From Mycobacteriales bacterium (lineage in GTDB: Bacteria; Actinomycetota; Actinomycetes; Mycobacteriales; QHCD01): a DNA stretch of 64,000 nt. The position numbers and the translations under genes are program-made. Location of the stretch: contig JBBSHJ010000004.1 of NCBI GenBank assembly GCA_038253135.1, forward strand, positions 801-64,800, written 5' to 3'. The notes beneath the pieces are model-generated. The model was not told the DNA's origin. It saw only the letters and a list, made by a program, of their open reading frames with translations, and did no database searches. This document shows, piece after piece, positions 24,900-59,923 of this stretch (the first letter of the stretch is position 1; every line of letters begins with the position of its first letter).

Positions 24900-25247
24900 T
24901 CAGGGTTCGGCCGAGCCCTCGCGGTAGATCCTCGCCTCGAGGATCTTGCCGCCGCCCAGCGAGAAGAAGCCGGCGATCGCGGCGAGGCGTTGCGTTCCGT
25001 CCTCGCCGGTCCAGGTCTCCGTCAGCTCGGCCGCGACGACGGTGCCCGAGGCGAGGACGCGGCGGACCGCCAGCCTGGGCTGGAGGGCATCGAAGGCACC
25101 GGTGAAGAGGGCACGGATCTCCTCGGTCCCGCGGTAGGTGTCGGTGCCGGTGCTCCACACGGCATCGAGTGTGAAGCCCGACATCACCCGCTCGATGTTG
25201 CCCGAATTGACGGCGGCGACGTGATCGCGGATCAGGCCCTCACTCAT
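24900..25247 (-). CDS. NTF2/SnoaL-like fold protein
   Basis: 115 aa, N-terminal [26 protein letters not shown] pattern typical of SnoaL-like proteins. Confidence 0.6.
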
Positions 25248-33064: not shown

Positions 33065-33547
33065 ATGACGACCGAGACCGGCCTGACCGCTGCGGGCGCC
33101 AACCTGGCACCCGTGCCGGACGATCTGCGGCCCGACTACCCCACCCGGCTGCCGGGCCGCCTGGCCCGCATCATCGCCACACCACGGCCGATCACCGACG
33201 GCGAGCGGCGTACGGCGCGCGACTCGATCGTCGACGTCGTGTGCATGCTGATCGCCGCCGGCATCGGCGCGGTGCTCTGGAACGGCCTCCTGCCGCACTT
33301 CGGGTCCGGTCCGCTGCAATGGATCGATCTCGGGACGGGCGTGCTCTGCGTGGCCGTAACCTGGTTCCGGCGCCGCTGGCCGATCCCCATCGCCATCATC
33401 ACCACACTGGCCACGACCTTCTCCAGCGCGGCCGTGGGCGCGGGAATCGTGGCCATGTTCACCGTCGGCGTGCACCGGCGGTTCGGCCCGCTCGCCGCGG
33501 TGGCGGTGCTGGGCATCCTGTGCGGCGTCCCCTACGACACGATCGTC
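33065..33547 (+). pseudogene. Membrane sensor segment of a NarL-type histidine-kinase-like gene, 3' part missing
   Basis: ATG 33065. TM-rich WFRRRWPIPIAIITTLATTF..AMFTVGVHRR resembles HK N-termini. No H-box or ATPase follows. The frame runs stop-less through a repeat into the antisense of the sulfatase. Confidence 0.4.
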
Positions 33548-34905
33548 GCTGATCGGCTCGGCGCTGATCGGCTCGGCGCTGATCGGCTCGGCGACAGGGC
33601 GTCCGGCGGCCGGATCGGGGCGCCGTCGGGCTGGGGTATCGGCCCGCGCAGCAGTGGGTCAGCGGTGCGCCGCATCCAGGTCGTCAACCGGGCGTCGAGA
33701 TCGTGCCGGACGTCGGCGTACGCCGGATCGTCGGCCACGTCGTGCCGCTCCTGCGGGTCGAAGAGCAGGTCGTACAACTGCACCGCGGCGACCGGACGAT
33801 CGGCCCAGCCGGCCTCGACCCAGTGCTGCTTGCTCGCCGTGTCGTCGACGTTGGCCAGCGGCTTGTGCGACGGACCGCCCCAGTCCACGTCTGCCCCGTT
33901 CGACCGGATCAGCTTCCACCGTCCGGTGCGGATGGCGCGGTGCGGTTCGTACGCCGCGTGATAGTTGATCTCGGCGAAGATCTCCCGATCCGGATCGTCC
34001 GGCAGCGGCACCAGCGAGCGCCCCTGCAGCCAGGACGGGTGCGGTACGCCGGCCAGATCGCAGATCGTCGGGTAGAGATCGAGGTGCGACACCGGCGCAT
34101 CGACCACGCGGGCGCCGGTGAAGGGCTCTGGTCCGGCCAGGATCAGCAGCACGCCGATGCCGTGGTCGGTCAGCGTGCACTTCATGCCGGGCAATGCGAC
34201 GCCGTGATCGGTCGTGGCGATGACCAGCGTGCTCGGCGCCAGTCCCGTCTCGTCGAGGGTGCGAAGGACGCGTCCCACGGCGTCGTCCATGGCCGCGGCC
34301 GAGGCGATGAACGAGGCCATGTCCGCCCGCGTCGGGGGCGAGTCCGGCAGCGGCGGCGGCGGCGCGACGTACCGGCTTTCGACCGGCGGGTAGCCGAAGA
34401 CGCCAACGCCGGCGGGCGGATTGGCGACCGTGTGCGTCTCGGTGAACCCGACGGACAGGAAGAACGGTGCGTCATGCCCGCGGTGCAGGAAGTCCACCGC
34501 CGCCGCGCTGACCCCGGCAGCCCTCCCGTCACCGGTGTCCAGTTGCTCGTCGTACCCGATCGTCCGCGCCGCGGCCGGGCCTGCAGCGATGTGCTGCACA
34601 CCGGCGAGCACCGCGCGGTAGCCGCCCGCGCGCAGCGGATGGATGACGTGCTGCCCGAAATCGTTGAGGCGGAAGCCGAAATGCGCCAGGCCGAGCATCC
34701 CCGACTGGTGCGGCCACTGCCCGGTGAGCAGCGCGGCGCGGCTCGGCGAGCAGGTCGGCGCCGCCGAGAACGCCTGCCGGAACAGGACACCGCGCTCGGC
34801 CAGGCCCTGCAGCGCCGGGGTCGGCACGGCGTGGCCATAGGGCTGGACGTAACGGCCGCTGTCGTGCGTGTGGATATAGATGATGTTGGGTGGCTGCCCG
34901 GTCAT
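33532..34905 (-). CDS. Cys-type sulfatase
   Basis: ATG 34905 with GGGAGG 9 nt upstream. IIYIHTHDSG, PTCSPSRAALLTGQ (CxPxR formylglycine motif). Confidence 0.85.
   Translation of the reverse strand: MTGQPPNIIYIHTHDSGRYVQPYGHAVPTPALQGLAERGVLFRQAFSAAPTCSPSRAALLTGQWPHQSGMLGLAHFGFRLNDFGQHVIHPLRAGGYRAVLAGVQHIAAGPAAARTIGYDEQLDTGDGRAAGVSAAAVDFLHRGHDAPFFLSVGFTETHTVANPPAGVGVFGYPPVESRYVAPPPPLPDSPPTRADMASFIASAAAMDDAVGRVLRTLDETGLAPSTLVIATTDHGVALPGMKCTLTDHGIGVLLILAGPEPFTGARVVDAPVSHLDLYPTICDLAGVPHPSWLQGRSLVPLPDDPDREIFAEINYHAAYEPHRAIRTGRWKLIRSNGADVDWGGPSHKPLANVDDTASKQHWVEAGWADRPVAAVQLYDLLFDPQERHDVADDPAYADVRHDLDARLTTWMRRTADPLLRGPIPQPDGAPIRPPDALSPSRSAPSRSAPSRSATIVS
33548..33592. repeat. Perfect 3 x 15-bp tandem repeat GCTGATCGGCTCGGC
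   Basis: Counted directly. Encodes ADRLG x3 on plus and SAPSR x3 in the C-terminal tail of the minus-strand sulfatase. Confidence 0.95.
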
Positions 34906-34939
34906 CGCGTCTCGCCTCCCCACTCACCGACTTCGGCCC

Positions 34940-38602: not shown

Positions 38603-39430
38603 CTAGCGCTCGAAATGCTGGTAATCGGTGGGGCTGGTCCAGGAGCCGCCCCACGACCAGCCTCGCGCCGCGAAGGCATTAACCACCGCGTCTGCGGCGT
38701 GGATCATGCCGCGCACCCGCTGGTCGCGATCGGCGTATTTCCGCGCGCTCTCCGGGTCGACCAGATTTCCTTTGATATACGGGTTTTCGAACGGATTGAC
38801 GTCGATCGCTTTGCCGTAAGCGTGCTTGGACCAGCCGCCACCACCGGTGATGGGACGGCAGTTGAAGGCCGAGGTGTTGTCCGCGAGCATGGATTTCTCG
38901 TCGCTGCCGCCGTACGCCGCGCTCGGTTGCATCCGGCGAATCGGATAGCCGGATTCTCGGAGGCTTCCGAAGACGCGCACCACGCTCTCGGCAACGGACG
39001 CGGCGACGACGAGGGTGCCCCGATGCGTGCGGCCGTCGAAACCGAGGTAGCTGATCGACACCGCGCGAAGGTCCTCGGAACTGACCGGGCAGCCCGCGTG
39101 CCAGCTCGCGCCGAGCTCGGCGCGGGTGACCGGCCGGATCGGCACTGCCGAGGCTCGTGCCGACGAGGTCACCGGCGTCGCCGAGGTGGGCGTGGGCGGT
39201 GCCGGAGACCGAGCCGACCTGCCGGGGCGCGACCGGCTGAGGGTCGGCGCGGTGCTCTGCGACGCCGACCGAGACGGCACGGAACCCACCGAGGAGGACG
39301 GCGGCCCCGCTGACGACTCTCGGGCCGACGACCTCTGCTCGGCCGACTTCACCGAGCCGTGCGATCCGCAGCCCGCGACGAGGAGTGCGCCCGCGAAGAC
39401 GGCGGCGCATCGCCGTACCGCCCGCTGCAT
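38603..39430 (-). CDS. M15-family D-Ala-D-Ala carboxypeptidase-like lipoprotein
   Basis: ATG 39430 with GGAGG 6 nt upstream. Lipobox LLVAGC. SKHAYGKAIDVNP and DYQHFE (H-x6-D...H zinc site). Confidence 0.75.
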   Translation of the reverse strand: MQRAVRRCAAVFAGALLVAGCGSHGSVKSAEQRSSARESSAGPPSSSVGSVPSRSASQSTAPTLSRSRPGRSARSPAPPTPTSATPVTSSARASAVPIRPVTRAELGASWHAGCPVSSEDLRAVSISYLGFDGRTHRGTLVVAASVAESVVRVFGSLRESGYPIRRMQPSAAYGGSDEKSMLADNTSAFNCRPITGGGGWSKHAYGKAIDVNPFENPYIKGNLVDPESARKYADRDQRVRGMIHAADAVVNAFAARGWSWGGSWTSPTDYQHFER

Positions 39431-39615
39431 CACCACCTCCGGATACGCTGCGCTCACCCAGCTACCCGAGGATCACACACCCGCCGCGCCTGGCCGAGCA
39501 ACCGAGCCACCGCGGCCGGTGCACGACTCGTCGCCCGCATCGCGGTCGGCTCGCGACACGCAGCCGGCGGGGATCGATTGCGGAGCACCGGAGATCGCAT
39601 GACAGGCTCGTCACC

Positions 39616-42600
39616 ATGACGCCGAGAGCCATTTCCCGCATCGCGATCGTCAACCGCGGCGAAGCGGCCATCCGGCTGATCCACGCCGTACGCGATCTCA
39701 ATGCTCGAACCTGCGCCGGCGAGCGGCCGATGACGACCATCGCCCTCTTCACCGACGCCGAGCGGCATGCGATGTTCGTCCGGGAGGCCGACGAGGCGCA
39801 TGGCCTTGGTCCCGCGGCAAACCGGCCGTATCTCGACCTCGCCGTGCTCGAGCGCGCGCTGGCCGAGACCGCCGCGGACGCCGTATGGGTGGGCTGGGGC
39901 TTCGTCGCCGAGGATCCGGCGTTCGCGGAGCTGTGCCGGCGGGTCGGCGTGAGTTTTATCGGGCCGAGCCCCGCGGCAATGCGCAAGCTCGGGGACAAGA
40001 TCGGCGCCAAGCTGATCGCCGAGCGGGCCGGCCTGCCAGTGGCGCCGTGGAGCCACGGGTCGGTCGACACGCTCGAGGACGCCCTCGATCAGGCTCGGGG
40101 AGTCGGCTACCCGCTCATGCTCAAGGCCAGCGCCGGCGGCGGCGGTCGAGGCATCCGGCTGATCCGGTCCGCCGACGAGCTCCGCGAGGCGTATGTGCGG
40201 ACCAGGGAGGAGGCGCAGCGCGCGTTCGGCAGCGGGGTGCTCTTCCTCGAGCAGCTTCTCACGGGAGCCCGTCACGTCGAGGTGCAGATCCTCGCCGACG
40301 GACAGGGCACCGCATGGGCGGTCGGGGTGCGTGACTGTTCGCTGCAGCGGCGCAACCAGAAGGTCATCGAGGAGTCGGCCTCACCGGTCCTCGCCGGCGG
40401 GCAGGTCCGCGAGCTGAAGGAGGCCGCCGAGCGGCTCGCCCTCGCCGTCGACTACGAGGGGGCCGGCACGGTGGAGTTCCTCTACCAGCCCGGGCAGCAC
40501 AGGTTCGCCTTCCTGGAGGTCAACACCCGGCTGCAGGTCGAGCACCCCGTCACCGAGGTCACGACGGGGATCGACCTCGTCCAGGCCCAGATTCACATCG
40601 CCGGCGGGGGCCGGCTCGACGGGCCACGCCCGGCGGAGGTCGGTCACGCGATCGAGGCGAGGCTCAACGCCGAGGATCCCGACCGCGACTTCGCGCCCGC
40701 ACCGGGCCGGATCTCGCTGCTGCGCCTGCCGGCCGGGCCGGGCACGCGCGTCGACACGGGCATGGGCGAGGGTGATGAGATCCCCGCCGACTTCGACTCG
40801 ATGATCGCCAAGATCATCGCCTACGGCCGCGACCGCAACGAGGCCATCGCCCGACTGCGCCGAGCGGTCGGAGAGACGGCGGTCGTCATCGACGGCGGTA
40901 CGACGAACAAGACCTTCCTGCTCGACCTGCTCGCGCAGCCGGAGTTCCTCGACGGCACGGCCGACACCGGGTGGATCGATCGAGCCCGCGCAGAGGGGCG
41001 GCTGGTCTCCCACGAGCACAGTGGCGTCGCGCTCGTCGCCGCCGGCATCGAGGCCTACGAAGCCGAGGAGCTGCTCGAGCGGACCCGCCTCTTCGAGACC
41101 TCCCGCGGCGGCCGGCCGCAGGCCCAGCACGAGGCCGGCCGGCCGCTCGAGCTCGAGCTGCGAGGTACGACGTACAAGGTCACGGTGCTGCAGACGGGAC
41201 CCCGGCGCTTCCGCGTCGGCGTGCTCGCACCGGACGGCCGTACGGCACGGGTCGACGCCGAGCTCGAGCGCCTCGACGCCCACACCGCCCGCATCAGCGT
41301 CGGTGCCCGCACGCATCGGCTGCTCACCGCCGGTCACGGCCCGCTGCGCCTCGTCGAGATCGACGGGGTCGCCCACCGGGTGAGCCGGGACGAGGGCGGT
41401 GTGCTGCGGGCCCCCTCGCCCGCCTTCGTCGTCGCGGTCCCGGCGCCGCCCGGATCCGAGGTCGCTGCCGGCGAGCCCGTCGTCGTGCTCGAGAGCATGA
41501 AGATGGAAGCCGTCATCACGGCTCCGCTCGCCGCGACGGTGAAACAGGTCTTCGTCTCGGCCGGCAGCCAGGTGGAGACCGGCGCGCCGCTCGTGCGCCT
41601 GGAGCCGACCGGCGCGGGCAGCGAGCCGACCACGGCAGTCCCGGCGTGCGCCGGCGCCGACCTCGATCTTCCCGACGCCTCGGTCACCCCGACGGCCGAT
41701 CCGCGCGACCGAGCGGCGCGATGTCGTGCCGAGCTGACCGCGTTGCTCCTCGGCTACGACGTCGATCCCGATGACGACGGCCATCTCCTGCAGAGTTACC
41801 TGCAGGTGCGTGATGAGCTCGCCGCAGCCGGCACGCCGTGCGTCGCCGACGAGGTGGACATGCTCGCGGTCTTCGCCGACATCGCCGAGCTGGGCCGCAA
41901 CCGCCCGGTCGACGAACAGGAGCACACCGAGCACACCGTGCACAGCCCGCGGGAGCACTTCCACAGCTACCTGCAGAGCCTGGACGCCGATCGCGGCGAG
42001 CTCCCCGACTCGTTCCGGGACCGGCTCTCCCGGGTGCTGCGGCACTACGGCATTGCTGGGGGCATTTCTGGGGACGTCAATGGGCACGCCAATGGGGGCG
42101 CCAATGGGGGCGTCACCGGGAGCACCACCGGGCTCGACCGCACGCCTGAGCTCGAGGACGCCGTCTTCCGGGTCTTCCTCGCCCAGCAGCGGTCCACCCT
42201 AGACGTCGCCCTGGCCACGTCGATCCTGCAGCGGTGGGTGGCCGAGCCATGTCCTCCGGACGGGACGGCTCGGCTGGCCCGCGAGGTGCTCGACCGGCTC
42301 GTGCTCGCCACCCAGCGACGCATCCCGGTCGTCGGAGATCTCGCTCGCAGCGCCCGGTTCCGGTGGTTCGACCAACCGCTCGTCGATGCCGAGCGGGCCA
42401 GCGTGCTGGCCGACGCCCGGCGGCAGGTCCAGCACCTGGCGGCCGATCCCGAGGGGGCGGACCGCGCGGCCCGGATCGATGCGCTCGCCGCCATTCCCGA
42501 GCCGATCGTCGGATTTCTCTTCGATCGGCTCCGGGACGGCGTACCCGACTACGAGCCGATGCTCGAAGTGCTCATCAGGCGGCACTATCGCGAGCATGCG

Positions 42601-45225
42601 CTCGACGCGCGGCCGAGATCGGTTGACGGCCGGCCGTTCGCCGTCGCGGATTACGTGCTCGACGGGCAGGCAGTCCGTCTCGTGTCGACCGTCGGCCTCG
42701 TCTCCGAGCTCACGCCGAACGGCGGGCTGATCGGCGCAGTCCAGGCGCAGGTGGCCGATCGGGGAGTGGGCCAGCAGGCGGTGGTCGACCTCTACCTCGG
42801 CTGGCCGGATGCCCCCGACGATGCTGATGGGACGGCTGCGCAGCTGGTCGAGATGCTCGCGCCGCTCGCCGCCGATCCCGGGCTGCGGCGCGTCGCGGTC
42901 GCTGTCGGCCCGCGCGGGGACCGGCCGGTCCGCTACTACACCTTCCATCGTGACGACGGCTCCATCGACGCTCGCATCGTCGAGGATCGGCTCGTTCGCG
43001 ACATGCACCCCATGGTCGGCCGGCGGCTGAATCTGTGGCGCCTCCGCGAATTCGACGTCGTCCGCCTGCAGGCACCGGCCGACGTGCTCCTCTACCGCTG
43101 CACGGCGCGGGGTAACCCGGCCGATCGACGGCTGGTCGCCATGGCGCAGGTGCGGCAACTGGTCGTCGTACGCGGCGACGACGGGACCGTGACGTCGCTG
43201 CCGCACGTCGAGCGGGCGGTCGCGAACTGTATCGAGGCCATCCGGCGCGAGCGAGCCGCCGAAGGCGGGCATCTCGACGGCAATCTTGTGTGGGTGCAGC
43301 TCTGGCCGGTGGTCGAGGCACCGCTCGAGCAGCTCACGGCGCTGCAATCGAAGATCGTGCCGCTCAGCGTCGACGCCGGAATCGACGAGGTGGTCGTCCA
43401 GGGTCGGGTGGCGACCGGAGACGGTGCGGCCGCCCCCGTCGTGGCGCGGTTCCACTCCCAGCCCGGATCGGGCGTCGGAGCGAGCATCGAGCCGCCGCCG
43501 ACCGAGCCGCTGCACCCGCTCGACGACTACGCGGAGAAGGTGCAACGCGCTCGGCGGCGAGGCCTGCTCTACCCCTACGAGCTGCAGGCGCTCATCGCCG
43601 GGCGCGGTGGTACGTCGACGGAGTACGACCTCGAAGACGGCGACCGGCTGGCGCCGGTCGACCGGCCCTACGGCCTCAACACGGCCGGGATCATCGTCGG
43701 CGTGGTCTCCACGCCGACCGCTGTCTGTCCCGAGGGCGTGACCCGCCTGATCATGTGTGGTGATCCGACCCGTGCCCTCGGGGCGGTCTCCGAGGCGGAG
43801 TGCCGGCGGATCGTGGCCGCCCTCGATCTCGCCGAGCAGATGAAGGTGCCCATCGAGTGGTTCGCCGTCTCGGCGGGCGCGCGGATCGCCATGGACTCCG
43901 GCACCGAGAACATGGATTGGGTGGCCCGCGCGCTCAAGCGCATCGTCCAATTCACCCAGTCCGGAGGCGAGATCAATATCGTCGTCGCCGGCATCAATGT
44001 CGGGGCCCAGCCCTACTGGAACGCCGAGGCCACGATGCTCATGCACACCAAGGGCATCCTTGTCATGACGCCGGACAGCGCGATGGTGTTGACCGGAAAG
44101 CAGACGCTCGACTTCGCCGGTGGCGTCTCCGCCGAGGACAACTTCGGAATCGGCGGATACGACCGGGTCATGGGACCGAACGGGCAGGCGCAGTATTGGG
44201 CACCAGATCTGACCGGTGCACGCGACATTCTCATGGCTCACTATGCGCACAGTTACGTCGTGCCCGGCGAGCAGCGACCGCGCCGCGCGGCCACGACCGA
44301 CCCCGTCGACCGGGACATCACGCCCTATCCGCACTCCGCCCCTGGGACCGAATTCACAACGGTCGGTGACATCTTCTCGGCCCGCACAAATCGCGACCGG
44401 AAGAAGCCATTCGACATTCGCACCCTCATGCGGTCGGTGTCGGACCAGGACCACCAGCCGCTGGAGCGCTGGGCCGGCATGGCCGACGCCGAGACCGCCG
44501 TCGTGCAGGACGTGCATCTCGGTGGCCTGCCGGCGACGTTGATCGGCATCGAGTCGAAATCGGTGCCAAGGCGCGGATATCCGCCCAGCGACGGGCCCGA
44601 CACCTACACGGCGGGCACGCTCTTTCCCCGGTCGTCGAAGAAGGTTGCCCGCGCCATCAATGCGGCGAGCGGAAACCGTCCGGTCGTGGTGCTCGCAAAC
44701 TTGTCCGGCTTCGACGGCTCGCCCGACTCGATGCGGCACCTCCAGCTCGAATACGGTGCTGAAATCGGCCGTGCGGTCGTCAACTTCGACGGGCCGATCG
44801 TCTTTGTCGTGGTCTCCCGTTACCACGGCGGCGCGTTCGTCGTCTTCTCGAAGGCGCTCAACCCGCAGATGACCGTGCTCGCCGTCGAAGGATCCTTCGC
44901 GTCCGTCATCGGCGGCGCACCGGCAGCCGCGGTCGTCTTCGCGCGCGACGTGGACGCCCGCACGGCCGATGACCGCCGGGTCAGGCAACTCGACGGCGAG
45001 GTCAACCGGGCGCAGGGCGCCAAGCGGGCCCAGCTCGCCACCGAGCTCGCCGAGCTGCGCACCACCGTCCGCGCCGAGAAGATCGGCGAGGTCGCGACGG
45101 AATTCGACGCCGTGCACAGCATCCAGCGAGCGGTGGGTGTCGGCTCCGTCGACGAAATCATCGCGGCCGCCGATCTGCGGCCACGCATCGTCGCCGCACT
45201 CGAGGCCGATCACTGCGTCGACTGA
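39616..45225 (+). CDS. Single-chain multidomain biotin-dependent carboxylase (BC - BCCP - ~600-aa central region - CT)
   Basis: ATG 39616 gives ISRIAIVNRGEAAIR. KASAGGGGRGIR, EVNTRLQVEHPVTE (BC). VVLESMKMEAV (biotinyl-Lys codon 41500-41502). C-terminal carboxyltransferase blocks (FAVSAGARI, INVGAQPYW, SRYHGGAFVV). 1,869 aa. Confidence 0.85.
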   Translation: MTPRAISRIAIVNRGEAAIRLIHAVRDLNARTCAGERPMTTIALFTDAERHAMFVREADEAHGLGPAANRPYLDLAVLERALAETAADAVWVGWGFVAEDPAFAELCRRVGVSFIGPSPAAMRKLGDKIGAKLIAERAGLPVAPWSHGSVDTLEDALDQARGVGYPLMLKASAGGGGRGIRLIRSADELREAYVRTREEAQRAFGSGVLFLEQLLTGARHVEVQILADGQGTAWAVGVRDCSLQRRNQKVIEESASPVLAGGQVRELKEAAERLALAVDYEGAGTVEFLYQPGQHRFAFLEVNTRLQVEHPVTEVTTGIDLVQAQIHIAGGGRLDGPRPAEVGHAIEARLNAEDPDRDFAPAPGRISLLRLPAGPGTRVDTGMGEGDEIPADFDSMIAKIIAYGRDRNEAIARLRRAVGETAVVIDGGTTNKTFLLDLLAQPEFLDGTADTGWIDRARAEGRLVSHEHSGVALVAAGIEAYEAEELLERTRLFETSRGGRPQAQHEAGRPLELELRGTTYKVTVLQTGPRRFRVGVLAPDGRTARVDAELERLDAHTARISVGARTHRLLTAGHGPLRLVEIDGVAHRVSRDEGGVLRAPSPAFVVAVPAPPGSEVAAGEPVVVLESMKMEAVITAPLAATVKQVFVSAGSQVETGAPLVRLEPTGAGSEPTTAVPACAGADLDLPDASVTPTADPRDRAARCRAELTALLLGYDVDPDDDGHLLQSYLQVRDELAAAGTPCVADEVDMLAVFADIAELGRNRPVDEQEHTEHTVHSPREHFHSYLQSLDADRGELPDSFRDRLSRVLRHYGIAGGISGDVNGHANGGANGGVTGSTTGLDRTPELEDAVFRVFLAQQRSTLDVALATSILQRWVAEPCPPDGTARLAREVLDRLVLATQRRIPVVGDLARSARFRWFDQPLVDAERASVLADARRQVQHLAADPEGADRAARIDALAAIPEPIVGFLFDRLRDGVPDYEPMLEVLIRRHYREHALDARPRSVDGRPFAVADYVLDGQAVRLVSTVGLVSELTPNGGLIGAVQAQVADRGVGQQAVVDLYLGWPDAPDDADGTAAQLVEMLAPLAADPGLRRVAVAVGPRGDRPVRYYTFHRDDGSIDARIVEDRLVRDMHPMVGRRLNLWRLREFDVVRLQAPADVLLYRCTARGNPADRRLVAMAQVRQLVVVRGDDGTVTSLPHVERAVANCIEAIRRERAAEGGHLDGNLVWVQLWPVVEAPLEQLTALQSKIVPLSVDAGIDEVVVQGRVATGDGAAAPVVARFHSQPGSGVGASIEPPPTEPLHPLDDYAEKVQRARRRGLLYPYELQALIAGRGGTSTEYDLEDGDRLAPVDRPYGLNTAGIIVGVVSTPTAVCPEGVTRLIMCGDPTRALGAVSEAECRRIVAALDLAEQMKVPIEWFAVSAGARIAMDSGTENMDWVARALKRIVQFTQSGGEINIVVAGINVGAQPYWNAEATMLMHTKGILVMTPDSAMVLTGKQTLDFAGGVSAEDNFGIGGYDRVMGPNGQAQYWAPDLTGARDILMAHYAHSYVVPGEQRPRRAATTDPVDRDITPYPHSAPGTEFTTVGDIFSARTNRDRKKPFDIRTLMRSVSDQDHQPLERWAGMADAETAVVQDVHLGGLPATLIGIESKSVPRRGYPPSDGPDTYTAGTLFPRSSKKVARAINAASGNRPVVVLANLSGFDGSPDSMRHLQLEYGAEIGRAVVNFDGPIVFVVVSRYHGGAFVVFSKALNPQMTVLAVEGSFASVIGGAPAAAVVFARDVDARTADDRRVRQLDGEVNRAQGAKRAQLATELAELRTTVRAEKIGEVATEFDAVHSIQRAVGVGSVDEIIAAADLRPRIVAALEADHCVD

Positions 45226-45349: not shown

Positions 45350-45352
45350 CGG

Positions 45353-45426
45353 TGGGGCGGGTGGGTCTCGAACCCACGACCGACGGATTATGAGTCCGCT
45401 GCTCTGACCGACTGAGCTACCGCCCC
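45353..45426 (-). tRNA. tRNA with CAU anticodon (elongator Met, or Ile2 if lysidinylated)
   Basis: Hand-folded cloverleaf: acceptor GGGGCGG/CCGCCCC, D-stem GCTC/GAGC, anticodon stem GCGGA/TCCGT, loop CTCATAA, T-arm GTGGG-TTCGAGA-CCCAC. G1-C72 pair argues against an initiator. CCA not encoded. Confidence 0.9.
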
Positions 45427-45685: not shown

Positions 45686-46642
45686 GTGCCACGCAAGTTC
45701 GACCTGTACGACGACGATGCCCCTGACGGCCGGCCGCGCCACCGCGACGATCACGAGCGGGCGGCCGCGCGCGTCATGCGCACCCGCACCCGCGCCAAGG
45801 TTTTCGACGACCGGACACCGCTCGAGCTGGTCGACAGCACGGACACCGAAGCGAGCGCCGAGCGCCCGGCCGGCGACCGGTGGTCCACCTACAACGTTCC
45901 CGGGATCACGGCTGGTCCCGAACCGGTTCCGGCTTGGGTCGTCACCGAGGACGCCGCGGTCGACATCGAGCTCGGCGTCCTCAAGACCGGCAAGGAGGCC
46001 GACGTCTTCCTTGTCGAGCGCGGAATTCCCGACACCGACCGGCGCGTTCTGATGGCCGCCAAGCGCTATCGCGATCTCGACCATCGGGCCTTCCGGAGAG
46101 ACGTGGCGTACCTCGAGGGTCGCAACGTGCGAAAATCCCGCGAACGCCGGGCGCTGGCGAATCGCACCAGGTTTGGTCGCCAGGTTGCGGCGACGGAATG
46201 GGCGATCACCGAATTCGGCGTGCTAACAACGCTGTGGGAGCTAGGCGCGCCCGTCCCCTATCCGGTGCAGCTCGACCGCACGGAGATCCTCCTCGAATTC
46301 ATCGGCGATGACGACGGCGGGGCGGCCCCCCGGCTCGCCGAAATCCGGCCCTCCGAGGAAGAGGCCCGTTCCCTTTGGCAGCAATGCCTTGCGGCCATGT
46401 CGACGCTCGCCAGGGCCGGTTATACGCACGGCGACCTGTCGGCGTACAACCTGCTCGTCCATGACGGACGGCTCGTGATGATCGATGTCCCGCAAGCGGT
46501 CGACGTCATCACCAATCCGCAGGGCCCTGATTTCCTGGTCCGCGACGTGCGCAATATCGCGGGCTGGTTCACCACCCATGGTAGGCCCGACATCGATCCC
46601 GAGCAGATTGCCGCGGAACTGATTTCCGAGACCGGGATGTAG
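45686..46642 (+). CDS. RIO-type serine protein kinase
   Basis: LKTGKEADVF (ATP-loop), MAAKRY (Lys), YTHGDLSAYNLLV (catalytic loop), MIDVPQAV (metal loop). Confidence 0.8.
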   Translation: MPRKFDLYDDDAPDGRPRHRDDHERAAARVMRTRTRAKVFDDRTPLELVDSTDTEASAERPAGDRWSTYNVPGITAGPEPVPAWVVTEDAAVDIELGVLKTGKEADVFLVERGIPDTDRRVLMAAKRYRDLDHRAFRRDVAYLEGRNVRKSRERRALANRTRFGRQVAATEWAITEFGVLTTLWELGAPVPYPVQLDRTEILLEFIGDDDGGAAPRLAEIRPSEEEARSLWQQCLAAMSTLARAGYTHGDLSAYNLLVHDGRLVMIDVPQAVDVITNPQGPDFLVRDVRNIAGWFTTHGRPDIDPEQIAAELISETGM

Positions 46643-46663: not shown

Positions 46664-48628
46664 CTACGACGTCCACGCCCGCCACAGGGCGGCGTACTCC
46701 CCGTCGAGCGTGAGCAGCTCGTCGTGGCTGCCGAGCTCGGCGATCCGGCCGTCGATCACGACCGCGATCCGATCCGCGTCGTGCGCGGTGTGCAGCCGGT
46801 GCGCGATCGCGACGACCGTGCGCCCGGTGAGCAACGCGTTCATCGAGCCCTCGAGGTGCCGGGCCGTGCGCGGGTCGATCAGCGACGTCGCCTCGTCCAG
46901 CACGAGGGTGTGCGGATCGGCGATGATCAGCCGGGCCAGGGCGATCTGCTGGGCCTGCGCGGGAGTCAGCGCGGTGTTGCCGGCGCCCAGCTTCGTGCCG
47001 AGCCCGTCGGGCAGCCGGGAGACCCAGTCCCAGGCGTCGACCGCGGCCAGCGCCGACTGCACGACGCTGTCATCGGAGTCCTCCCGGGCCAGGATGATGT
47101 TGTCGCGCACCGAGCCGACGAAGACGTGCTGCTCCTGCGTGACCAGCGCGACCTCGGTCCGCAGCACCGGCAGCGGCAGCGCGACCAGGTCGATGCTGCC
47201 GACGGTGACCGAGCCGGTCCTCGGTCCGTTGATCCCCGCCAGCAGCCGACCCAGCGTCGACTTGCCGGAGCCGGACGGCCCGACGATGGCCAGCCGCTCG
47301 CCGACCCTGAGATCCATGTCGATCCCATGCAGGACATCGTGCCCCTCCCGGTAGGCGAATCGCAGGTCCGATCCGACGAGGTGCACGCCCTGCGGATCCT
47401 CGTCCTGCGGCTCGCGGTCCGGCGGGATCGTCGCGATCCCGAGCAGCCGCGACGTCGATGCGGCGCCCACCTGCAACCGGTCGACGGTCGACACGAAGAG
47501 ATCGAGCGGGCCGAAGAGGCCCTCGATGTAGAGCACGGCGGCGGTGATCTGTCCGAGGCTGACCCAGCCCTTGCCGTAGGCGTAAGCGCCGAGCAGGACC
47601 GTCACACCGCGGGGCGCGTTGAAGGCCACGTCCATGACGATGAACAGCAGATTGCGCAGCGACATCGTGTAACGCTCGGCCTGCGCGGACACTGCGATGT
47701 CGTCGTCGTTACGGCCGATCCGCCGGTCCTGCAGGCCGAGCGCCTCGACCGTGCGAGCGCCCTCGACGGTCTCGGTCATCGTCGTGTTGATGCGCGAGTA
47801 GGTGCCGCCCTCGGTGATGTAGCCCTTCGGGGCGCGGGCGAGGTAGCGCCTGATCTGCAGCGCCGCGAGCGCGACGAGGACGAGCGAGGGTACGGCGAGG
47901 ATCGGCGAGTTGATGACGAGCGCGACAAACGTGAGGACAACGGTCAGCCCGGAGATGATCGCCTGCGGCATCGCCCACTGCACCGAGGCGCTCATCGTCC
48001 CAACGTCACGGGTGATACGGGTGACGAGGTCGCCCGTGCTGGCCCGCTCGACCGTGCCGAGCGGGAGCCGCAGGACCGCGCGCACGACGTACTCCCTGGC
48101 GGCGGCAAGCAGGTCCTGGCCGAACATCGTCGAGCTCGCGTTGGCCGCGAAGGTCAGGGCGCTCTGCACGATCACGATGCCGCTGACCGCCAGCGCGAGC
48201 GCGTTGACGTGGCTCATGACCGTGCCGCCGCCGGCGGTCGAATTCACCAACGAGCCGAGCAGGCGCGGCACGAAGAGACCGGACACGGCGGCCAGCACGT
48301 TGAGCACGATGAGCAGGGCCAGGCCGCGCCTGCGGTCCCCTATCAGCCCGCGCATGAAGGACACGACCGCGGTGTTGTCGGCGACCGGCAGGCCGTTCTC
48401 CGGATCGCGCGAGGCCGCGAAATAGCGGTTGGCGCGCTCGGCCCGGAGCAGGTGGCGGCGATGCCAGGCGCCGATGCGTTCGCGCACCGACCCCGACGTC
48501 GGTGGGATCAGCTCCGGTGGCACGGCCGGCTCGACGGCCGGCCCGTCGTCGCGCCACGTGGCCGCCGACCCCTCGAAGAGCTCGTCCGCCATGGCCGCGC
48601 CGCGCGCGTGGTCGACGTCGGTGCTCAT
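46664..48628 (-). CDS. ABC exporter fused permease/ATPase, canonical Walker A/B, degenerate signature
   Basis: ATG 48628 with GGAGG 4 nt upstream. GPSGSGKST, LVLDEATS. The signature position reads LTPAQAQ instead of LSGGQ. Confidence 0.85.
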   Translation of the reverse strand: MSTDVDHARGAAMADELFEGSAATWRDDGPAVEPAVPPELIPPTSGSVRERIGAWHRRHLLRAERANRYFAASRDPENGLPVADNTAVVSFMRGLIGDRRRGLALLIVLNVLAAVSGLFVPRLLGSLVNSTAGGGTVMSHVNALALAVSGIVIVQSALTFAANASSTMFGQDLLAAAREYVVRAVLRLPLGTVERASTGDLVTRITRDVGTMSASVQWAMPQAIISGLTVVLTFVALVINSPILAVPSLVLVALAALQIRRYLARAPKGYITEGGTYSRINTTMTETVEGARTVEALGLQDRRIGRNDDDIAVSAQAERYTMSLRNLLFIVMDVAFNAPRGVTVLLGAYAYGKGWVSLGQITAAVLYIEGLFGPLDLFVSTVDRLQVGAASTSRLLGIATIPPDREPQDEDPQGVHLVGSDLRFAYREGHDVLHGIDMDLRVGERLAIVGPSGSGKSTLGRLLAGINGPRTGSVTVGSIDLVALPLPVLRTEVALVTQEQHVFVGSVRDNIILAREDSDDSVVQSALAAVDAWDWVSRLPDGLGTKLGAGNTALTPAQAQQIALARLIIADPHTLVLDEATSLIDPRTARHLEGSMNALLTGRTVVAIAHRLHTAHDADRIAVVIDGRIAELGSHDELLTLDGEYAALWRAWTS

Positions 48629-48629
48629 A

Positions 48630-48785
48630 CCGCCTCCGCGGAAAAGCGTGCGTCGGCGGTGCCCATAGCCGCCTCCGCGGAAAAGCATGCGTCGGCGGTG
48701 CCCATAGCCGCCTCCGCGGAAAAGCGTGCGTCGGCGGTGCCCATAGCCGCCTCCGCGGAAAAGCATGCGTCGGCGGTGCTCACGC
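48630..48785. repeat. 4 x 39-bp tandem repeat (CCGCCTCCGCGGAAAAGC[G/A]TGCGTCGGCGGTGCCCATAG)
   Basis: Counted directly. Units at 48630, 48669, 48708 and 48747 (last unit diverges at its end). G/A alternates at unit position 19. Fills the whole gap between the two ABC genes. Confidence 0.95.
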
Positions 48786-50654
48786 GGGGGACCCCTCATC
48801 GGGAGCGTCGAGGTTGCGCACCACGACGGAGCGGTACGCCGGGTCGTCGCGCAGCAGTTCGTCGTGCGTGCCGTCGGCAGCCGCCCGGCCACCGTCGAGC
48901 AGGACGATCCGGTCGGCGTGATGCAGCAGCAGCGGCGAAACCGACATCACGATCGTCGTACGACCGCGCCGGTACCCCGCCAGCCGCGCCGCGATCATGG
49001 CCTCGGTGTGCGCGTCGACGGCCGACGTCGGCTCGACCAACACCAGCACCTCGGGGTCCCGCGCCAGCGCCCGGGCCAGCACCAGCCGTTGCCGCTGACC
49101 GCCGGACAGGCCGCGGCCCCGCTCGTCGATGCGGCCCTGCCAGCCACCGGGCATCGCCTCGAAGACGTCCTCGGCCGCGGCCGTGTGCAGCGCCGCCTCG
49201 GCCTGCCGGCGGGTGAGGATGCCGTGCGGGTCGACGAGGTCCTGCAACGTGCCGGAGAAGACCATCGCACCGGTGTCGGAGACCACGATCTGCTCGCGTA
49301 CGTCGCGCAGCGCGGCATCGGCGAGGTCGACACCGCCGACCCGCACCCCCCACGGACCGGCCGCGAGCGCCTCGTCCGCTCGGGCGATTTCCGCTTGCGC
49401 GGCAAGGCGCTTCTCGTGTTCACGCTTGGCGGCCGCGCCGGCGACCTTGTCGTCGACTGCGGGCGCGGAGTGCGCGGCCGGGGGGAGGTAGCGCCCGACC
49501 CGGTCGGCGAGCGCGGCCGTCTCGTCTGGCGCGGCGCTCACCACCATCGTCAGCTCACCCGGCTGCGCGACGAAGCCGGTGGCCTCGTCCGTGATGACCG
49601 CCCCGGTAGGCAGCGGGCGTGGCTGCTGCGGGTCGTGCCACGGCGGTGTGAGCCCGAGCGCGGCGATCGCCTTGCGGGCCGAGACCATGCCGCGGGTCCA
49701 TTTCTGGAAGAACTGGAAGAAGTTGGTCACCGGGCCGGTCAGGAACATGGCGTAGCCCAGCAACGCCACCAGCTGGCCGGTGGAGATCCGGCCGTGGAGC
49801 ACGTCCCGGGCGCCGAGCCACATCAGCAGGACCAGAAAGATCCCCGGCAGCAGGACCGCGACGCCGTCGGTGATGGACTGCCAGATGCCGGCGGCCACGC
49901 CGGCCGAGCGCACCCGTTGCGACTGGCCGGCGTAGTTGCGGCCGAACGTCGACTCGCCGCCGATGCCGCGCAGGATCCGCAGGCCCGCGACGATGTCCGT
50001 GGCCATTCCGGTCAGCTCGGAGTTGCGGCTGCGCTCGACCGCCTGGCGGCGCTCCATCGGCTTGAGCAGCGGAAAGGCCATCGCCACCAGCAGCGGCGGG
50101 CCGACCAGCACGAGCAGGCCGAGCTTGACCGACGTACCGAGCACGATCGCGCTCACGGTCAGGAAGGCGACCAGGGACGCCAGCCCGCGGCCGGTCACCT
50201 CGATCAGCGACCCGAAGGTGTCCGAGTCCGACGACGAGACGCTCAGGACCTCACCGGTCGGCAGCCGCCGCCCCTGGATGTGGCCGAGCTGCGCGGTCTT
50301 GCGGTTGACCAGCTTCGTCGTGCCGTAGAGGGCGATCAGCCAGCCGCGCACGGCCATGGTGTGGAAGAGCATGCCGCACATCGCGCCGGCCATCGTCACG
50401 ATGAGCAGCGCCAGACCCCAGAAGAGCGTGCCCGACGTGGAGCCGGGCAGGATCCCCTTGTCGATCGCCTTGCCGAGCAGGAAGGGACCCACCGTCGGCG
50501 GGATATACCAAAGGACACCGGCAACCGCGTTGCCGGTGAGCACGTCGGCCTGATCGCGCAGCAACCAACGGAGAAACGCACCCGGCGTACGGGTATCAGG
50601 CTCTGCGGTGGCGGATGCGCTGTAGGCGTCGACTACAGGAGGGAAGTCGCGCAT
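48780..50654 (-). CDS. ABC exporter fused permease/ATPase, degenerate Walker A, canonical signature
   Basis: ATG 50654 (MRDFPPVVD...). LSGGQRQR present. The Walker A position reads [10 protein letters not shown], and Walker B reads LVLVEPTS. ~45-aa insertion after the degenerate P-loop. Confidence 0.85.
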
Positions 50655-50876
50655 AGCTGTACCAATGTACGAAGCGCGGCGGCCCGCTGCGACCGAATTC
50701 CGGGCGCTGTGTGCGATCCCACCCTGTGCCGACGAGCACTCCGATGCATCGTGTCCATCAGGATGAGGCCCCTGGCATTGACCGAGCGCGGCCCGGCCGA
50801 GCCGACGGTCAGCTTGGCCCGCCCGCTGACCGCGACCGCGGGTGCCCTCTTCCGTGGGCAACGCGCCGGCCCGACG

Positions 50877-50904
50877 CCATGCGCGCGCGCACGCGCGCGC
50901 ACGC
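50877..50904. repeat. 28-nt perfect alternating pyrimidine-purine tract with CGCGCGCGCA x2
   Basis: Read directly: CATGCGCGCGCGCACGCGCGCGCACGCG. Confidence 0.9.
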
Positions 50905-51344
50905 GAGGACGGTGCGCGAGGGTGACCTGATCGTCGAGCGTCCCGACCAGCGGGCAGGTGGTGCTCGACCAGCCCGGACAGCGCGGCCGCGGTCCGCCAG
51001 CAGCCGAAGCCGAGCAGGCCGAGCCCGACGGCGCACAGCACGATGTCCCAGCCGTACGGCGAGTCGCTGAGGACGAGGTTCACCGACGCCGTGGTCAGGA
51101 TCACCAGCGCCAACCCGGCGCAGACCAGGCCGATGCACGGGCCGTCCCTGCTGCGTCTCGCCCCGTCCCTGGCCACGAGCACCTCTGCGACCGGAACCAT
51201 GTAGCCACCGTCGGCGCGCACCGCTTGCATGGCGGACGCTCCCACCCCGGGCACTGCCGAGACCGACCTCATCGGCTCAGTCCGGCCGGGAAGCTACCAG
51301 TACGCCACTCGGATCCGGCGCGAACCGACGGCCGGACGGAGGTG

Positions 51345-52631: not shown

Positions 52632-52653
52632 TCCCGCGGTCTCCTTCGTGCGG

Positions 52654-54123: not shown

Positions 54124-54126
54124 GGA

Positions 54127-55236: not shown

Positions 55237-55278
55237 GCTCTTCCTCCGTGCTCAGAAACTTCGTGCTCGGAAAACGAT

Positions 55279-55292
55279 TCAGCGCCGCCACG
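55279..55292. promoter_or_regulatory. Operator-like motif gGAAAACGATTCAg
   Basis: Exact 12-mer shared with 59911-59922. 44 nt upstream of the GH172-B start. Confidence 0.4.
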
Positions 55293-55308
55293 CTACCGGC
55301 CGACCGCG

Positions 55309-56382: not shown

Positions 56383-56389
56383 GCGGGGC

Positions 56390-57394: not shown

Positions 57395-57412
57395 GGCGAT
57401 TTCTCCTTCTCC

Positions 57413-59907: not shown

Positions 59908-59923
59908 TGAGAAAACGATTCAC
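59908..59923. promoter_or_regulatory. Operator-like motif TGAGAAAACGATTCAC
   Basis: Contains the same 12-mer GAAAACGATTCA as 55280-55291. Imperfect palindrome cGTGA-N9-TCACg. ~163 nt upstream of the oxidoreductase start. Confidence 0.4.

What the first reader, a model, noticed from the sequence alone, without database searches (positions are those of the whole stretch)
39616..45225. 1,869-aa single-chain biotin-dependent carboxylase with an unassigned ~600-aa central region
One ORF encodes four parts:
- a complete biotin carboxylase (Gly-rich loop KASAGGGGRGIR at ~40123-40158)
- a BCCP domain with an SMKM biotinylation motif (Lys codon 41500-41502)
- a long middle segment (~41650-43450) in which I recognise no motif; it contains a small Gly/Asn-rich repeat (GHANGGANGG, ~42070-42110)
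- a C-terminal carboxyltransferase domain

The BC-BCCP-central-CT order and the size resemble eukaryotic acetyl-CoA carboxylase more than the multi-subunit bacterial enzymes or the ~120-kDa bacterial single-chain long-chain acyl-CoA carboxylase. The substrate and the role of the central region are open. The gene stands alone between a peptidase gene and a tRNA.
Basis: partly seen in the sequence, partly recalled or inferred. Interest (0 to 1): 0.55.

Follow-up and report, generated by a model that had tools for sequence, protein, structure and literature searches.

The report
Actinobacterial eukaryote-type single-chain acetyl-CoA carboxylase
This gene encodes a 200-kDa single-chain acetyl/propionyl-CoA carboxylase built like the eukaryotic enzyme, central domain included; it is real and intact, but it belongs to a widespread actinobacterial family whose first member was characterised in 2019, so it is an ordinary housekeeping gene.

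Summary
An intact 1,869-aa ORF lies at 39616-45225 (+). It has a complete biotin carboxylase, an SMKM biotinylation site (Lys629, codon 41500-41502), a roughly 600-aa middle region and a C-terminal carboxyltransferase. It stands alone between a divergent M15 peptidase gene and a tRNA-Met gene.

The middle region is not unassigned:
- Pfam ACC_central (PF08326) hits it above the curated threshold.
- An AlphaFold model (pLDDT 83.7) has 31 top PDB matches, all eukaryotic ACC central domains (E down to 3e-26).
- A profile of this region alone hits only eukaryotic ACCs in the PDB.

A BT domain sits between BC and BCCP, so the order is BC-BT-BCCP-CD-CT, as in yeast and human ACC. The CT profile matches eukaryotic ACC CTs at E of about 1e-24, and bacterial beta subunits at 4e-9 or weaker.

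The family is large: hundreds of actinobacterial genomes and 2,980 clusters at 50% identity. One member, SACE_4237 of Saccharopolyspora erythraea, is a homodimeric, essential acetyl/propionyl-CoA carboxylase (Livieri 2019). The GHANGGANGG stretch is a 24-residue insertion derived from a tandem repeat. It is disordered in the model and absent from 118 of 119 homologues.

Verdict: new member of a known kind, low interest.

The parts
39616..45225 (+). Complete gene for the 1,869-aa single-chain carboxylase (stop TGA at 45223-45225)
   Evidence: ORF list and translation. Full-length homologues at 67-71% identity. A 99%-identical protein from a sister MAG is named 'Mycobacteriales bacterium'.
39616..40980 (+). 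Biotin carboxylase (BC) domain, residues 1-455. Gly-rich ATP loop KASAGGGGRGIR at 40123-40158. Motifs NQKVIEE, TVEFL, EVNTRLQVEHP and EARLNAEDP are present.
   Evidence: Pfam PF00289, PF02786 and PF02785. NCBIfam accC-type models at 430-495 bits. PDB phmmer hits to MCC/PCC alpha and BC chains at E=1e-113 to 1e-98. Motif positions. Equivalence to the E. coli BC catalytic residues is from my own knowledge of that enzyme.
40981..41400 (+). BT (BC-CT interaction) domain, residues about 456-595: one long helix followed by eight beta strands
   Evidence: AlphaFold model m73e211662e00, pLDDT 83.6. Foldseek best hits are the BT of yeast ACC (5csa, 5csl) and human ACC1 (TMq 0.61-0.65, rmsd about 3 A), then the BT of MCC/PCC alpha subunits.
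41407..41601 (+). BCCP (biotinyl) domain, residues 598-662. Biotin attachment Lys629 lies in the ESMKME motif, codon 41500-41502.
   Evidence: Pfam PF00364, 47.7 bits. PDB hits to the BCCPs of MCC, PCC and PC. Coordinates.
41602..41700 (+). Flexible BCCP-CD linker, residues 663-695
   Evidence: pLDDT is 38-64 over fragment residues 1-30 of model m1b3fca4d0b30. Conservation is low in the family alignment.
41701..42585 (+). Central domain, N-terminal all-helical half (residues about 696-990), corresponding to the helical part (AC1-AC3 / CDN-CDL) of eukaryotic ACC
   Evidence: Model helices at fragment residues 34-328. Foldseek alignments of 700-850 columns to yeast, human and Chaetomium ACC central domains, E=3e-26 to 1e-14. 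This half gives no significant sequence-only hit.
42055..42126 (+). Lineage-specific 24-residue Gly/Asn-rich insertion (AGGISGDVNGHANGGANGGVTGST, residues 814-837) in a loop of the helical half.
   Evidence: Absent in 118 of 119 homologues. pLDDT <50. Overlaps 12-nt tandem repeats at 42049-42073 and 42069-42109. The sequence differs here between two 99%-identical MAG proteins.
42610..43491 (+). Central domain, two alpha/beta subdomains (residues about 999-1143 and 1146-1292), corresponding to AC4-AC5 / CDC1-CDC2 of eukaryotic ACC. The Pfam ACC_central hit covers residues 1087-1242 (42874-43341).
   Evidence: Pfam PF08326 at 27.0 bits, above the gathering score of 23.2. A central-domain-only profile hits only eukaryotic ACC chains, E=1.8e-12 to 4.6e-5, with the next hit at 0.17. 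Foldseek hits to the yeast AC3-AC5 crystal structures 5cs4 and 5trc, E about 1e-15, TMt 0.58.
43516..45222 (+). Carboxyltransferase (CT) domain, residues about 1301-1869. Family-invariant motifs SAGARI (43870-43887), GINVGAQPYW (43990-44019) and LSGFDGSPDSM (44701-44733).
   Evidence: Pfam PF01039, 112 bits. A CT-only profile against the PDB ranks 20 eukaryotic ACC CT sequences at E=1.2e-24 to 2.3e-19, and the best bacterial beta subunit at 4.1e-9. Motif invariance.

Best explanation
The gene encodes a member of the actinobacterial 'eukaryote-type' homomeric acyl-CoA carboxylases, the family of SACE_4237 from Saccharopolyspora erythraea. The domain order is BC-BT-BCCP-CD-CT.

**Mechanism** (inferred from the family and from the general chemistry of biotin carboxylases):
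1. A biotin ligase attaches biotin to Lys629.
2. The BC domain uses MgATP and bicarbonate to carboxylate the biotin.
3. The BCCP swings the carboxybiotin to the CT active site, which forms at the interface of a CT dimer.
4. The carboxyl group is transferred to acetyl-CoA, giving malonyl-CoA for fatty-acid synthesis. Propionyl-CoA is probably also used, giving methylmalonyl-CoA.

The roughly 600-residue central domain is a non-catalytic scaffold or hinge, homologous to that of fungal and human ACC. It holds BC and CT at the right distance.

**Shown here:** the domain anatomy, intact catalytic and biotinylation motifs, homology of the CD, BT and CT to eukaryotic ACC, and membership of a large actinobacterial family.

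**Inferred:** substrate, dimeric state and physiological role.
For: - **Domains:** Pfam and NCBIfam assignments, including ACC_central above threshold.
- **Motifs:** All BC motifs and the MKM biotinylation motif are present.
- **Central domain fold:** The model (pLDDT 83.7, pTM 0.75) has 31 top PDB matches, all eukaryotic ACC central domains. The first non-ACC hit is at E=9e-4.
- **Central domain sequence:** A profile of the region alone hits only eukaryotic ACC in the PDB.
- **BT domain:** The fold is confirmed, and its best matches are the yeast and human ACC BT.
- **CT domain:** The profile sits far closer to eukaryotic ACC CT than to any bacterial beta subunit.
- **Size:** 200.7 kDa matches the 'approximately 200 kDa' given for the family.
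- **Family breadth:** 67-71% identity over 99% of the length to proteins of Pedococcus, Kribbella, Nocardioides and others. At least 469 relatives were confirmed in reference genomes, including 12 Kribbella species. Kribbella flavida Kfla_3307 is listed as a family member in the supplement of PMC6491548.
- **Biochemistry of the family:** SACE_4237 carboxylates acetyl- and propionyl-CoA but not palmitoyl-CoA, is active only as a dimer, is essential, and its CT groups with eukaryotic CTs at 100% bootstrap.
Against: - I could not retrieve the SACE_4237 sequence, so identity to the characterised enzyme was not measured. Two searches aimed at it returned no Saccharopolyspora protein.
- The family is deep: more than 150 clusters at 50% identity score above 500 bits. 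Paralogues occur within one genome. Substrate preference may therefore differ between branches.
- I built no CT tree. Only similarity rankings support the placement next to eukaryotic ACC.
- By raw sequence score the BC-BT-BCCP half is closer to bacterial MCC/PCC alpha subunits than to eukaryotic ACC.
- Only 64 kb of the genome is visible, so I cannot say whether this is the organism's only or essential ACC.
Confidence: 0.85

Rival explanations
1. The architecture and chemistry are the same, but in this lineage the physiological substrate is not acetyl-CoA. The enzyme would be a dedicated propionyl-, butyryl- or other short acyl-CoA carboxylase, for example for propionate assimilation or polyketide extender units. 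A separate enzyme would supply malonyl-CoA.
For: - SACE_4237 is promiscuous, and its Km for propionyl-CoA is lower than for acetyl-CoA.
- The family is deep and has within-genome paralogues at 75% identity in Nocardioides immobilis, which allows subfunctionalisation.
- The rest of the genome is unseen.
Against: - The CT is closest to enzymes whose established substrate is acetyl-CoA (eukaryotic ACC).
- The CT core is nearly invariant across the family, with 91-96% identity to the query in residues 1451-1500 and 1651-1750.
- The gene is stand-alone, with no conserved catabolic or biosynthetic neighbours in 80 loci. That fits a housekeeping role.
Confidence: 0.12
2. [quoted passage not shown]
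For: It is a single chain and it is bacterial. Its BCCP gives a weak hit to LCC 4rcn_A (E=9e-6).
Against: - LCC is 1,093 aa with its BCCP at residues 491-553 and no central domain.
- The LCC chain is absent from the CT-profile hits at E<=1e-3.
- The characterised family member has no activity on palmitoyl-CoA and falls in a different CT group from LCC in the published tree.
Confidence: 0.01
3. It is an assembly artefact, a chimeric fusion or a decaying pseudogene in a metagenome-assembled genome, or a recent transfer from a eukaryote.
For: The source is a MAG. The window does contain apparently frameshifted genes elsewhere, at 20.9-21.9 kb.
Against: - The 5.6-kb frame is uninterrupted and has native codon bias, GC3 0.88 like its neighbours.
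- The same end-to-end architecture occurs in isolate genomes of many actinobacterial families.
- All catalytic motifs are intact.
- Identity to eukaryotic ACC is only 13-18% in the structural alignments, so the relationship is ancient.
Confidence: 0.01

Closest known systems
SACE_4237 of Saccharopolyspora erythraea and its actinobacterial orthologues ('actinobacterial homodimeric multidomain ACC'; Livieri et al. 2019, Sci Rep 9:6725, PMC6491548)
   Same: - About 200 kDa, single chain.
- BC-BT-BCCP-central-CT order.
- The central region is homologous to the eukaryotic ACC central domain, and the CT is nearest to eukaryotic CTs.
- It occurs in Nocardioidaceae, Pseudonocardiaceae and other actinobacterial families. 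The window protein is 67% identical to a Kribbella protein and 64% to an Actinomycetospora (Pseudonocardiaceae) protein.
   Different: - Identity to SACE_4237 itself was not measured, because I could not retrieve that sequence.
- The window protein carries a unique 24-residue Gly/Asn-rich loop insertion.
- Its host is an uncultured Mycobacteriales-like MAG.
- Activity, oligomeric state and essentiality are untested for this protein.
Eukaryotic homomeric acetyl-CoA carboxylase (yeast Acc1p, 5CSL/5CSK; human ACC1, 6G2D/8XL0; Chaetomium thermophilum ACC, 5I6E-5I6I)
   Same: - Identical domain order, including BT and the non-catalytic central domain.
- The predicted central-domain and BT folds match.
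- The CT is the closest CT in the PDB by sequence.
- The Pfam ACC_central family is shared.
   Different: - The protein has 1,869 aa, against 2,200-2,400.
- Identity is only 13-18% in the structural alignments.
- Only the C-terminal half of the central domain is detectable by sequence.
- The BC half scores higher against bacterial alpha subunits.
- For SACE_4237, citrate is not needed for oligomerisation or activity.
- I did not examine the eukaryotic phospho-regulatory loop here.
Two-subunit actinobacterial acyl-CoA carboxylases (alpha = BC-BT-BCCP, such as AccA3 or PccA; beta = CT, such as AccD5, AccD6 or PccB) and MCC/PCC holoenzymes
   Same: The N-terminal 664 residues align in one stretch with P. 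aeruginosa MCC alpha (3u9s_A, E=1.7e-113). The chemistry and the biotin swinging arm are the same.
   Different: Here the CT is fused in cis after a central domain. The CT is only remotely similar to beta subunits (E=4e-9 or weaker). The expected assembly is a homodimer rather than an alpha6beta6 complex.
[quoted passage not shown]
   Same: It is a bacterial single polypeptide carrying BC, BCCP and CT.
   Different: LCC has 1,093 aa, no central domain and a BCCP at residues 491-553. Its CT is not detected by the CT profile. It is a hexamer with a long-chain preference, according to PMC6491548.
Fused AccADCB multifunctional ACC (PDB 9KKM, 1,517 aa)
   Same: It is another bacterial single-chain ACC. 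Its BC domain matches the window protein (E=5e-86).
   Different: In 9KKM the BC lies at residues 939-1394, towards the C-terminus, after the CT subunits implied by the name. It is not N-terminal as here. I saw no evidence of an ACC-type central domain in that chain, which does not appear among the central-domain hits.

Membership tests
Actinobacterial eukaryote-type homomeric ACC (SACE_4237 family) | Single polypeptide of about 200 kDa with the order BC-(BT)-BCCP-central-CT | tested here: met
   Pfam layout. BT and central-domain models. Mass of 200.7 kDa. Family description.
Actinobacterial eukaryote-type homomeric ACC (SACE_4237 family) | Central region homologous to the eukaryotic ACC central domain | tested here: met
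   PF08326 above its gathering score. Profile search hits only eukaryotic ACC. Foldseek top 31 hits are all eukaryotic ACC central domains.
Actinobacterial eukaryote-type homomeric ACC (SACE_4237 family) | CT domain groups with eukaryotic ACC CT rather than with bacterial beta subunits or LCC | tested here: met
   This was tested by similarity ranking only. Eukaryotic CTs score E=1e-24 to 2e-19 and the best bacterial beta subunit 4e-9. I built no tree. The published tree gives 100% bootstrap for the family with eukaryotes.
Actinobacterial eukaryote-type homomeric ACC (SACE_4237 family) | Direct orthology to the characterised enzyme SACE_4237 | tested here: inconclusive
   The SACE_4237 sequence was not obtainable. 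The link is indirect: 67% identity to a Kribbella protein, Kribbella flavida Kfla_3307 listed as a family member in the paper's supplement, and 64% identity to a Pseudonocardiaceae protein (Actinomycetospora).
Actinobacterial eukaryote-type homomeric ACC (SACE_4237 family) | [quoted passage not shown] | not testable with these tools
   This needs enzyme assays. It is known only for SACE_4237.
Actinobacterial eukaryote-type homomeric ACC (SACE_4237 family) | Active form is a homodimer | not testable with these tools
   No multimer prediction was available. It is inferred from SACE_4237 and from the general rule, from my own knowledge of CT structures, that CT active sites form at a dimer interface.
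Actinobacterial eukaryote-type homomeric ACC (SACE_4237 family) | Essential; sole supplier of malonyl-CoA in genomes that lack AccB/AccD6-type or E. coli-type ACC | not testable with these tools
   Only 64 kb of the genome is available. The window holds no other CT gene. The only other BC-like gene is a degenerate one at 22107-23249.
Biotin-dependent carboxylases (general) | Intact BC ATP-grasp catalytic motifs and a (A/V/S)MKM biotinylation motif | tested here: met
   KASAGGGGRG, NQKVIEE, TVEFL, EVNTRLQVEH, EARLNAED and ESMKME are all present and nearly invariant in the family. The roles of these residues are from my own knowledge of E. coli BC.
Eukaryotic homomeric ACC | BC-BT-BCCP-CD-CT architecture with the CD fold (helical part plus two alpha/beta subdomains) | tested here: met
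Eukaryotic homomeric ACC | Size of about 2,200-2,400 aa, eukaryotic host, and citrate or phospho-loop regulation | tested here: not met
   The protein has 1,869 aa and a bacterial host. SACE_4237 is citrate-independent. The protein works like a eukaryotic ACC but is not filed as one.
[quoted passage not shown] | About 1,100 aa, no central domain, LCC-type CT | tested here: not met
   4rcn_A has 1,093 aa with its BCCP at residues 491-553. It gives no hit to the CT profile at E<=1e-3.

The most novel reading that the evidence does not exclude
The bacterial central domain is not just a passive scaffold. It would be a regulated hinge, as in fungal and human ACC, for example switched by Ser/Thr phosphorylation. 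SACE_4237 is reported to be phosphorylated during the metabolic switch. The hinge-based control of ACC would then predate eukaryotes. This compact, stand-alone 1,869-aa enzyme, or a relative, would be a tractable model for how the eukaryotic enzyme and its regulation arose. A weaker variant of this reading is that the tandem-repeat-derived Gly/Asn loop tunes that hinge in this lineage.
Probability: 0.1. Interest if true: 0.45.

Novelty: new member of a known kind. Interest (0 to 1): 0.2.

Why it matters
For genome annotation, the finding turns the generic label 'carboxyl transferase domain-containing protein' into a specific call: a eukaryote-type homomeric acetyl/propionyl-CoA carboxylase.

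More broadly, the family is the closest prokaryotic relative of eukaryotic ACC, which is a drug and herbicide target. No bacterial member appears among the solved structures I searched: every PDB match to the central domain is eukaryotic. A bacterial structure and a study of its regulation would therefore bear on how the eukaryotic enzyme originated. That question has been stated in the literature since 2019 and does not depend on this particular gene.

Tried and rejected
- **Retrieving SACE_4237 for a direct comparison failed.**
  - The paper's supplement holds the alignment figure only as an image.
  - The genome scan kept the best 80 loci, none from Saccharopolyspora.
  - A protein search seeded with the Pseudonocardiaceae (Actinomycetospora) orthologue returned no Saccharopolyspora protein in its top 120.
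- **Exact look-up of the protein's contig:** not on record. The cluster look-up gave only 'Mycobacteriales bacterium' for a 99%-identical sister protein.
- **Representative-library search with CD-CT (residues 670-1869).** I hoped eukaryotic ACCs would follow the bacterial family in the list and supply sequences for a tree. The family alone filled all 150 rows, so I built no tree.
- **Conserved gene neighbourhood:** none. Among the window's neighbours, only epimerase-like genes (5 loci) and the M15 peptidase (1 locus) had matches anywhere in the 80 related loci. No flanking gene family occurs in more than 9 of the 80 loci.
- **A functional link to the adjacent RIO1-type kinase:** rejected for lack of synteny.
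- **RNA elements, promoters and terminators around the gene:** only the two tRNAs, no promoter-like site, and two terminator-like hits inside the ORF at chance level.
- **LCC, assembly-artefact and recent eukaryotic-transfer readings:** rejected (see the rival explanations).
Full report
**1. Checking the observation**

The window is about 70% GC throughout. On the + strand a stop-free frame runs from 39241 to the TGA at 45223-45225; its first candidate start is GTG 39385. The ATG at 39616 gives a protein that begins MTPRAISRIAIVNRGEAA. This lines up with the N-termini of homologues (MFSRIAIVNRGEAA). The gene is therefore 39616-45225 and encodes 1,869 aa of 200.7 kDa. GC at the third codon position is 0.88, like the neighbouring genes.

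- KASAGGGGRGIR is at 40123-40158.
- SMKM has its lysine codon AAG at 41500-41502.
- GHANGGANGG is at 42082-42111.

Pfam finds Biotin_carb_N (6-122), the ATP-grasp domain (127-335), Biotin_carb_C (347-455), Biotin_lipoyl (598-662) and Carboxyl_trans (1374-1865). Upstream, a Peptidase_M15_4 gene is transcribed divergently (38606-39457, -). Downstream lies tRNA-Met (45351-45426, -), then a RIO1-type kinase gene.

**2. What the central region is**

The same Pfam scan already assigns part of the 'unassigned' region. ACC_central (PF08326) hits residues 1087-1242 at 27.0 bits, against a gathering score of 23.2. The region is conserved within the family, at about 50-70% identity to the query in each 50-residue block except at one insertion.

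I modelled residues 663-1400 with an alignment of 76 sequences. The model has mean pLDDT 83.7 and pTM 0.75. It shows an all-helical N-terminal half followed by two alpha/beta subdomains. Foldseek against the PDB returns 31 matches at E = 3e-26 to 3e-10, and every one is a eukaryotic acetyl-CoA carboxylase:
- the yeast holoenzyme (5csl, 5csk);
- 'central domain of yeast ACC' (5i6e);
- BT-BCCP-AC1-AC5 (5csa) and AC3-AC5 (5cs4, 5trc);
- Chaetomium CD-CT (5i6h);
- human ACC1 filaments.

The first non-ACC match is at E = 9e-4. Global TM-scores are modest (0.4-0.48) and rmsd values large. That is expected for a multi-subdomain hinge region. The AC3-AC5 crystal fragments give TMt 0.58.

A sequence profile built from the central region alone (28 sequences) hits only eukaryotic ACC chains in the PDB (E = 1.8e-12 to 4.6e-5, next hit 0.17). 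These hits all fall in the alpha/beta half. The helical half is recognisable only by fold.

**3. The rest of the anatomy**

Residues 455-600, between BC and BCCP, model as one long helix followed by eight strands (pLDDT 83.6). The best structural matches are the BT domains of yeast and human ACC (TMq 0.61-0.65, rmsd about 3 A). The BT domains of MCC and PCC alpha subunits come next. The full order is therefore BC-BT-BCCP-CD-CT, as in eukaryotic ACC.

A CT-only profile (30 sequences) ranks 20 distinct eukaryotic ACC CT sequences at E = 1.2e-24 to 2.3e-19. The best bacterial or archaeal beta subunit follows at 4.1e-9 (the single-sequence search gives the same order). The long-chain acyl-CoA carboxylase chain 4rcn is not hit by the CT profile. 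It has only 1,093 aa and its BCCP is at residues 491-553, so the LCC reading is excluded.

The N-terminal 664 residues score highest against bacterial MCC/PCC alpha subunits. They align in one stretch with 3u9s_A at E = 1.7e-113. By raw similarity the protein thus looks like an actinobacterial alpha subunit joined to a eukaryote-like CD-CT.

The BC motifs (Gly-rich loop, NQKVIEE, TVEFL, EVNTRLQVEH, EARLNAED) are present. So are the CT motifs SAGARI, GINVGAQPYW and LSGFDGSPDSM. These motifs are invariant or nearly so in the family. Their mapping to catalytic residues of E. coli BC and to the oxyanion-hole motifs of CTs is from my own knowledge of those enzymes.

**4. The Gly/Asn-rich repeat**

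The GHANGGANGG stretch belongs to a 24-residue insertion (residues 814-837). The insertion is missing from 118 of 119 aligned homologues. It falls in a loop with pLDDT below 50. It overlaps two short 12-nt tandem-repeat arrays, at 42049-42073 and 42069-42109. It is also one of the few places where a 99%-identical protein from a sister MAG differs. I read it as a slippage-derived, disordered loop with no evident function.

**5. Relatives and literature**

The protein search returned about 8,000 hits. The best 120 are all full-length (1,813-1,869 aa) and 67-71% identical. They come from Pedococcus, Phycicoccus, Terrabacter, Nostocoides, Kribbella, Nocardioides, Microlunatus, Jatrophihabitans and many MAGs, and nearly all carry PF08326. 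A scan of one genome per species confirmed at least 469 relatives. The best 80 are all Actinomycetota. The representative library holds 2,980 clusters at 50% identity with E <= 1e-3 to the CD-CT part, 894 of them at E <= 1e-30.

The gene has no conserved neighbours in the 80 related loci, as expected for a stand-alone housekeeping gene.

Livieri et al. 2019 (PMC6491548) characterised SACE_4237 of Saccharopolyspora erythraea:
- It is a multidomain protein of about 200 kDa with end-to-end homology to eukaryotic ACC, 'including the conserved central region'.
- It complements an E. coli accB(ts) mutant.
- It carboxylates acetyl-CoA and propionyl-CoA but not palmitoyl-CoA.
- It is active only as a roughly 400-kDa homodimer.
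- It does not require citrate.
- It is essential.
- Its CT groups with eukaryotic CTs at 100% bootstrap.

The paper lists orthologues in Nocardioidaceae, Pseudonocardiaceae and other families. It names Kribbella flavida Kfla_3307 in its central-region alignment. The window protein is 67% identical over its full length to a Kribbella protein and 64% to an Actinomycetospora (Pseudonocardiaceae) protein. I could not obtain the SACE_4237 sequence itself, so the link to the characterised enzyme is indirect.

**6. How it most likely works**

What is shown here:
- an intact BC domain;
- a BT domain;
- a biotinylatable BCCP;
- an ACC-type central domain;
- a eukaryote-like CT.

What is inferred:
- Biotin on Lys629 is carboxylated by BC with MgATP and bicarbonate.
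- BCCP carries the carboxybiotin to the CT site, which forms at a CT dimer interface.
- Acetyl-CoA, and probably propionyl-CoA, is carboxylated.
- The central domain serves as a non-catalytic scaffold or hinge.

My confidence is about 0.85 that this is a member of the SACE_4237-type family working in this way. It is somewhat lower (about 0.75) that acetyl-CoA is the main physiological substrate. The family is deep, and paralogues exist within a single genome.

**7. Novelty and verdict**

The 'open' parts were already answered by Pfam and by a 2019 paper. The gene is a new, uncharacterised member of a known and widespread family.

Some questions remain open for the family as a whole:
- There is no solved bacterial structure among the PDB chains I searched.
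- The role and regulation of the bacterial central domain are unknown.
- The evolutionary relationship to eukaryotic ACC is unresolved.

These questions are already in the literature and are not specific to this locus. Interest: 0.2.

Noticed in passing
window 22107-23249 (-), with 23471-23851 (-) and 23851-25158 (-): A 381-aa degenerate biotin-carboxylase-like ORF with strong coding bias (GC3 0.92). It lies directly downstream of a SigH-type ECF sigma factor (TIGR02947, 359 bits) and its RsrA-type mycothiol anti-sigma factor (TIGR03988, 89 bits). It lacks BC residues of about 145-220 (the lid subdomain with the Gly-rich ATP loop). It reads TSRDRLQIGH where active BCs have EVNTRLQVEH, and no BCCP follows. 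It may be a pseudoenzyme or a gene remnant.
   Followed up: partly
window 42049-42126; protein P0121: The 24-residue Gly/Asn-rich insertion in the ACC central domain overlaps 12-nt tandem repeats and differs between two 99%-identical MAG proteins. This suggests ongoing slippage. In the sister protein the BC active-site motif also reads EVHTR instead of EVNTR, which could be a sequencing error or a real substitution.
   Followed up: partly
L006 4289-5980 and L036 9849-11540 (both Nocardioides immobilis): One genome carries two full-length copies of this eukaryote-type carboxylase, 75% identical to each other. Paralogy, and possibly subfunctionalisation, therefore occurs inside the family.
   Followed up: partly
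window 45686-46639 (+): A RIO1-domain kinase gene (Pfam PF01163, 118.6 bits) lies just downstream of the ACC gene and the tRNA-Met gene. It has no counterpart in the 80 related loci, so I infer no functional link.
   Followed up: partly
window 51672-63052 (-), plus 33535-34923 (-): A same-strand run of carbohydrate-processing genes: AXE1 acetyl-xylan esterase, sulfatase, two DUF2961 genes, a xylose-isomerase-like TIM barrel, a GFO/IDH/MocA oxidoreductase, a second sulfatase and an FGGY kinase. A third sulfatase lies at 33.5 kb. This may be a locus for using a sulfated glycan.
   Followed up: no
window 20585-21852 (-): GC dips to 0.665 at 20-22 kb. Three consecutive ORF fragments lie in different frames (20947-21144, 21099-21395, 21364-21852). 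A short ORF with a GDSGGP serine-protease motif lies at 20585-20836. This looks like frameshifted or decaying genes, or MAG assembly errors.
   Followed up: no
window 46667-51272 (-): Two adjacent large ABC exporter genes (742 and 830 aa), each with a transmembrane and an ATPase domain and a long N-terminal extension. The two ORFs overlap by about 110 nt as listed, so the start of the downstream gene (46667-48892) needs checking.
   Followed up: no
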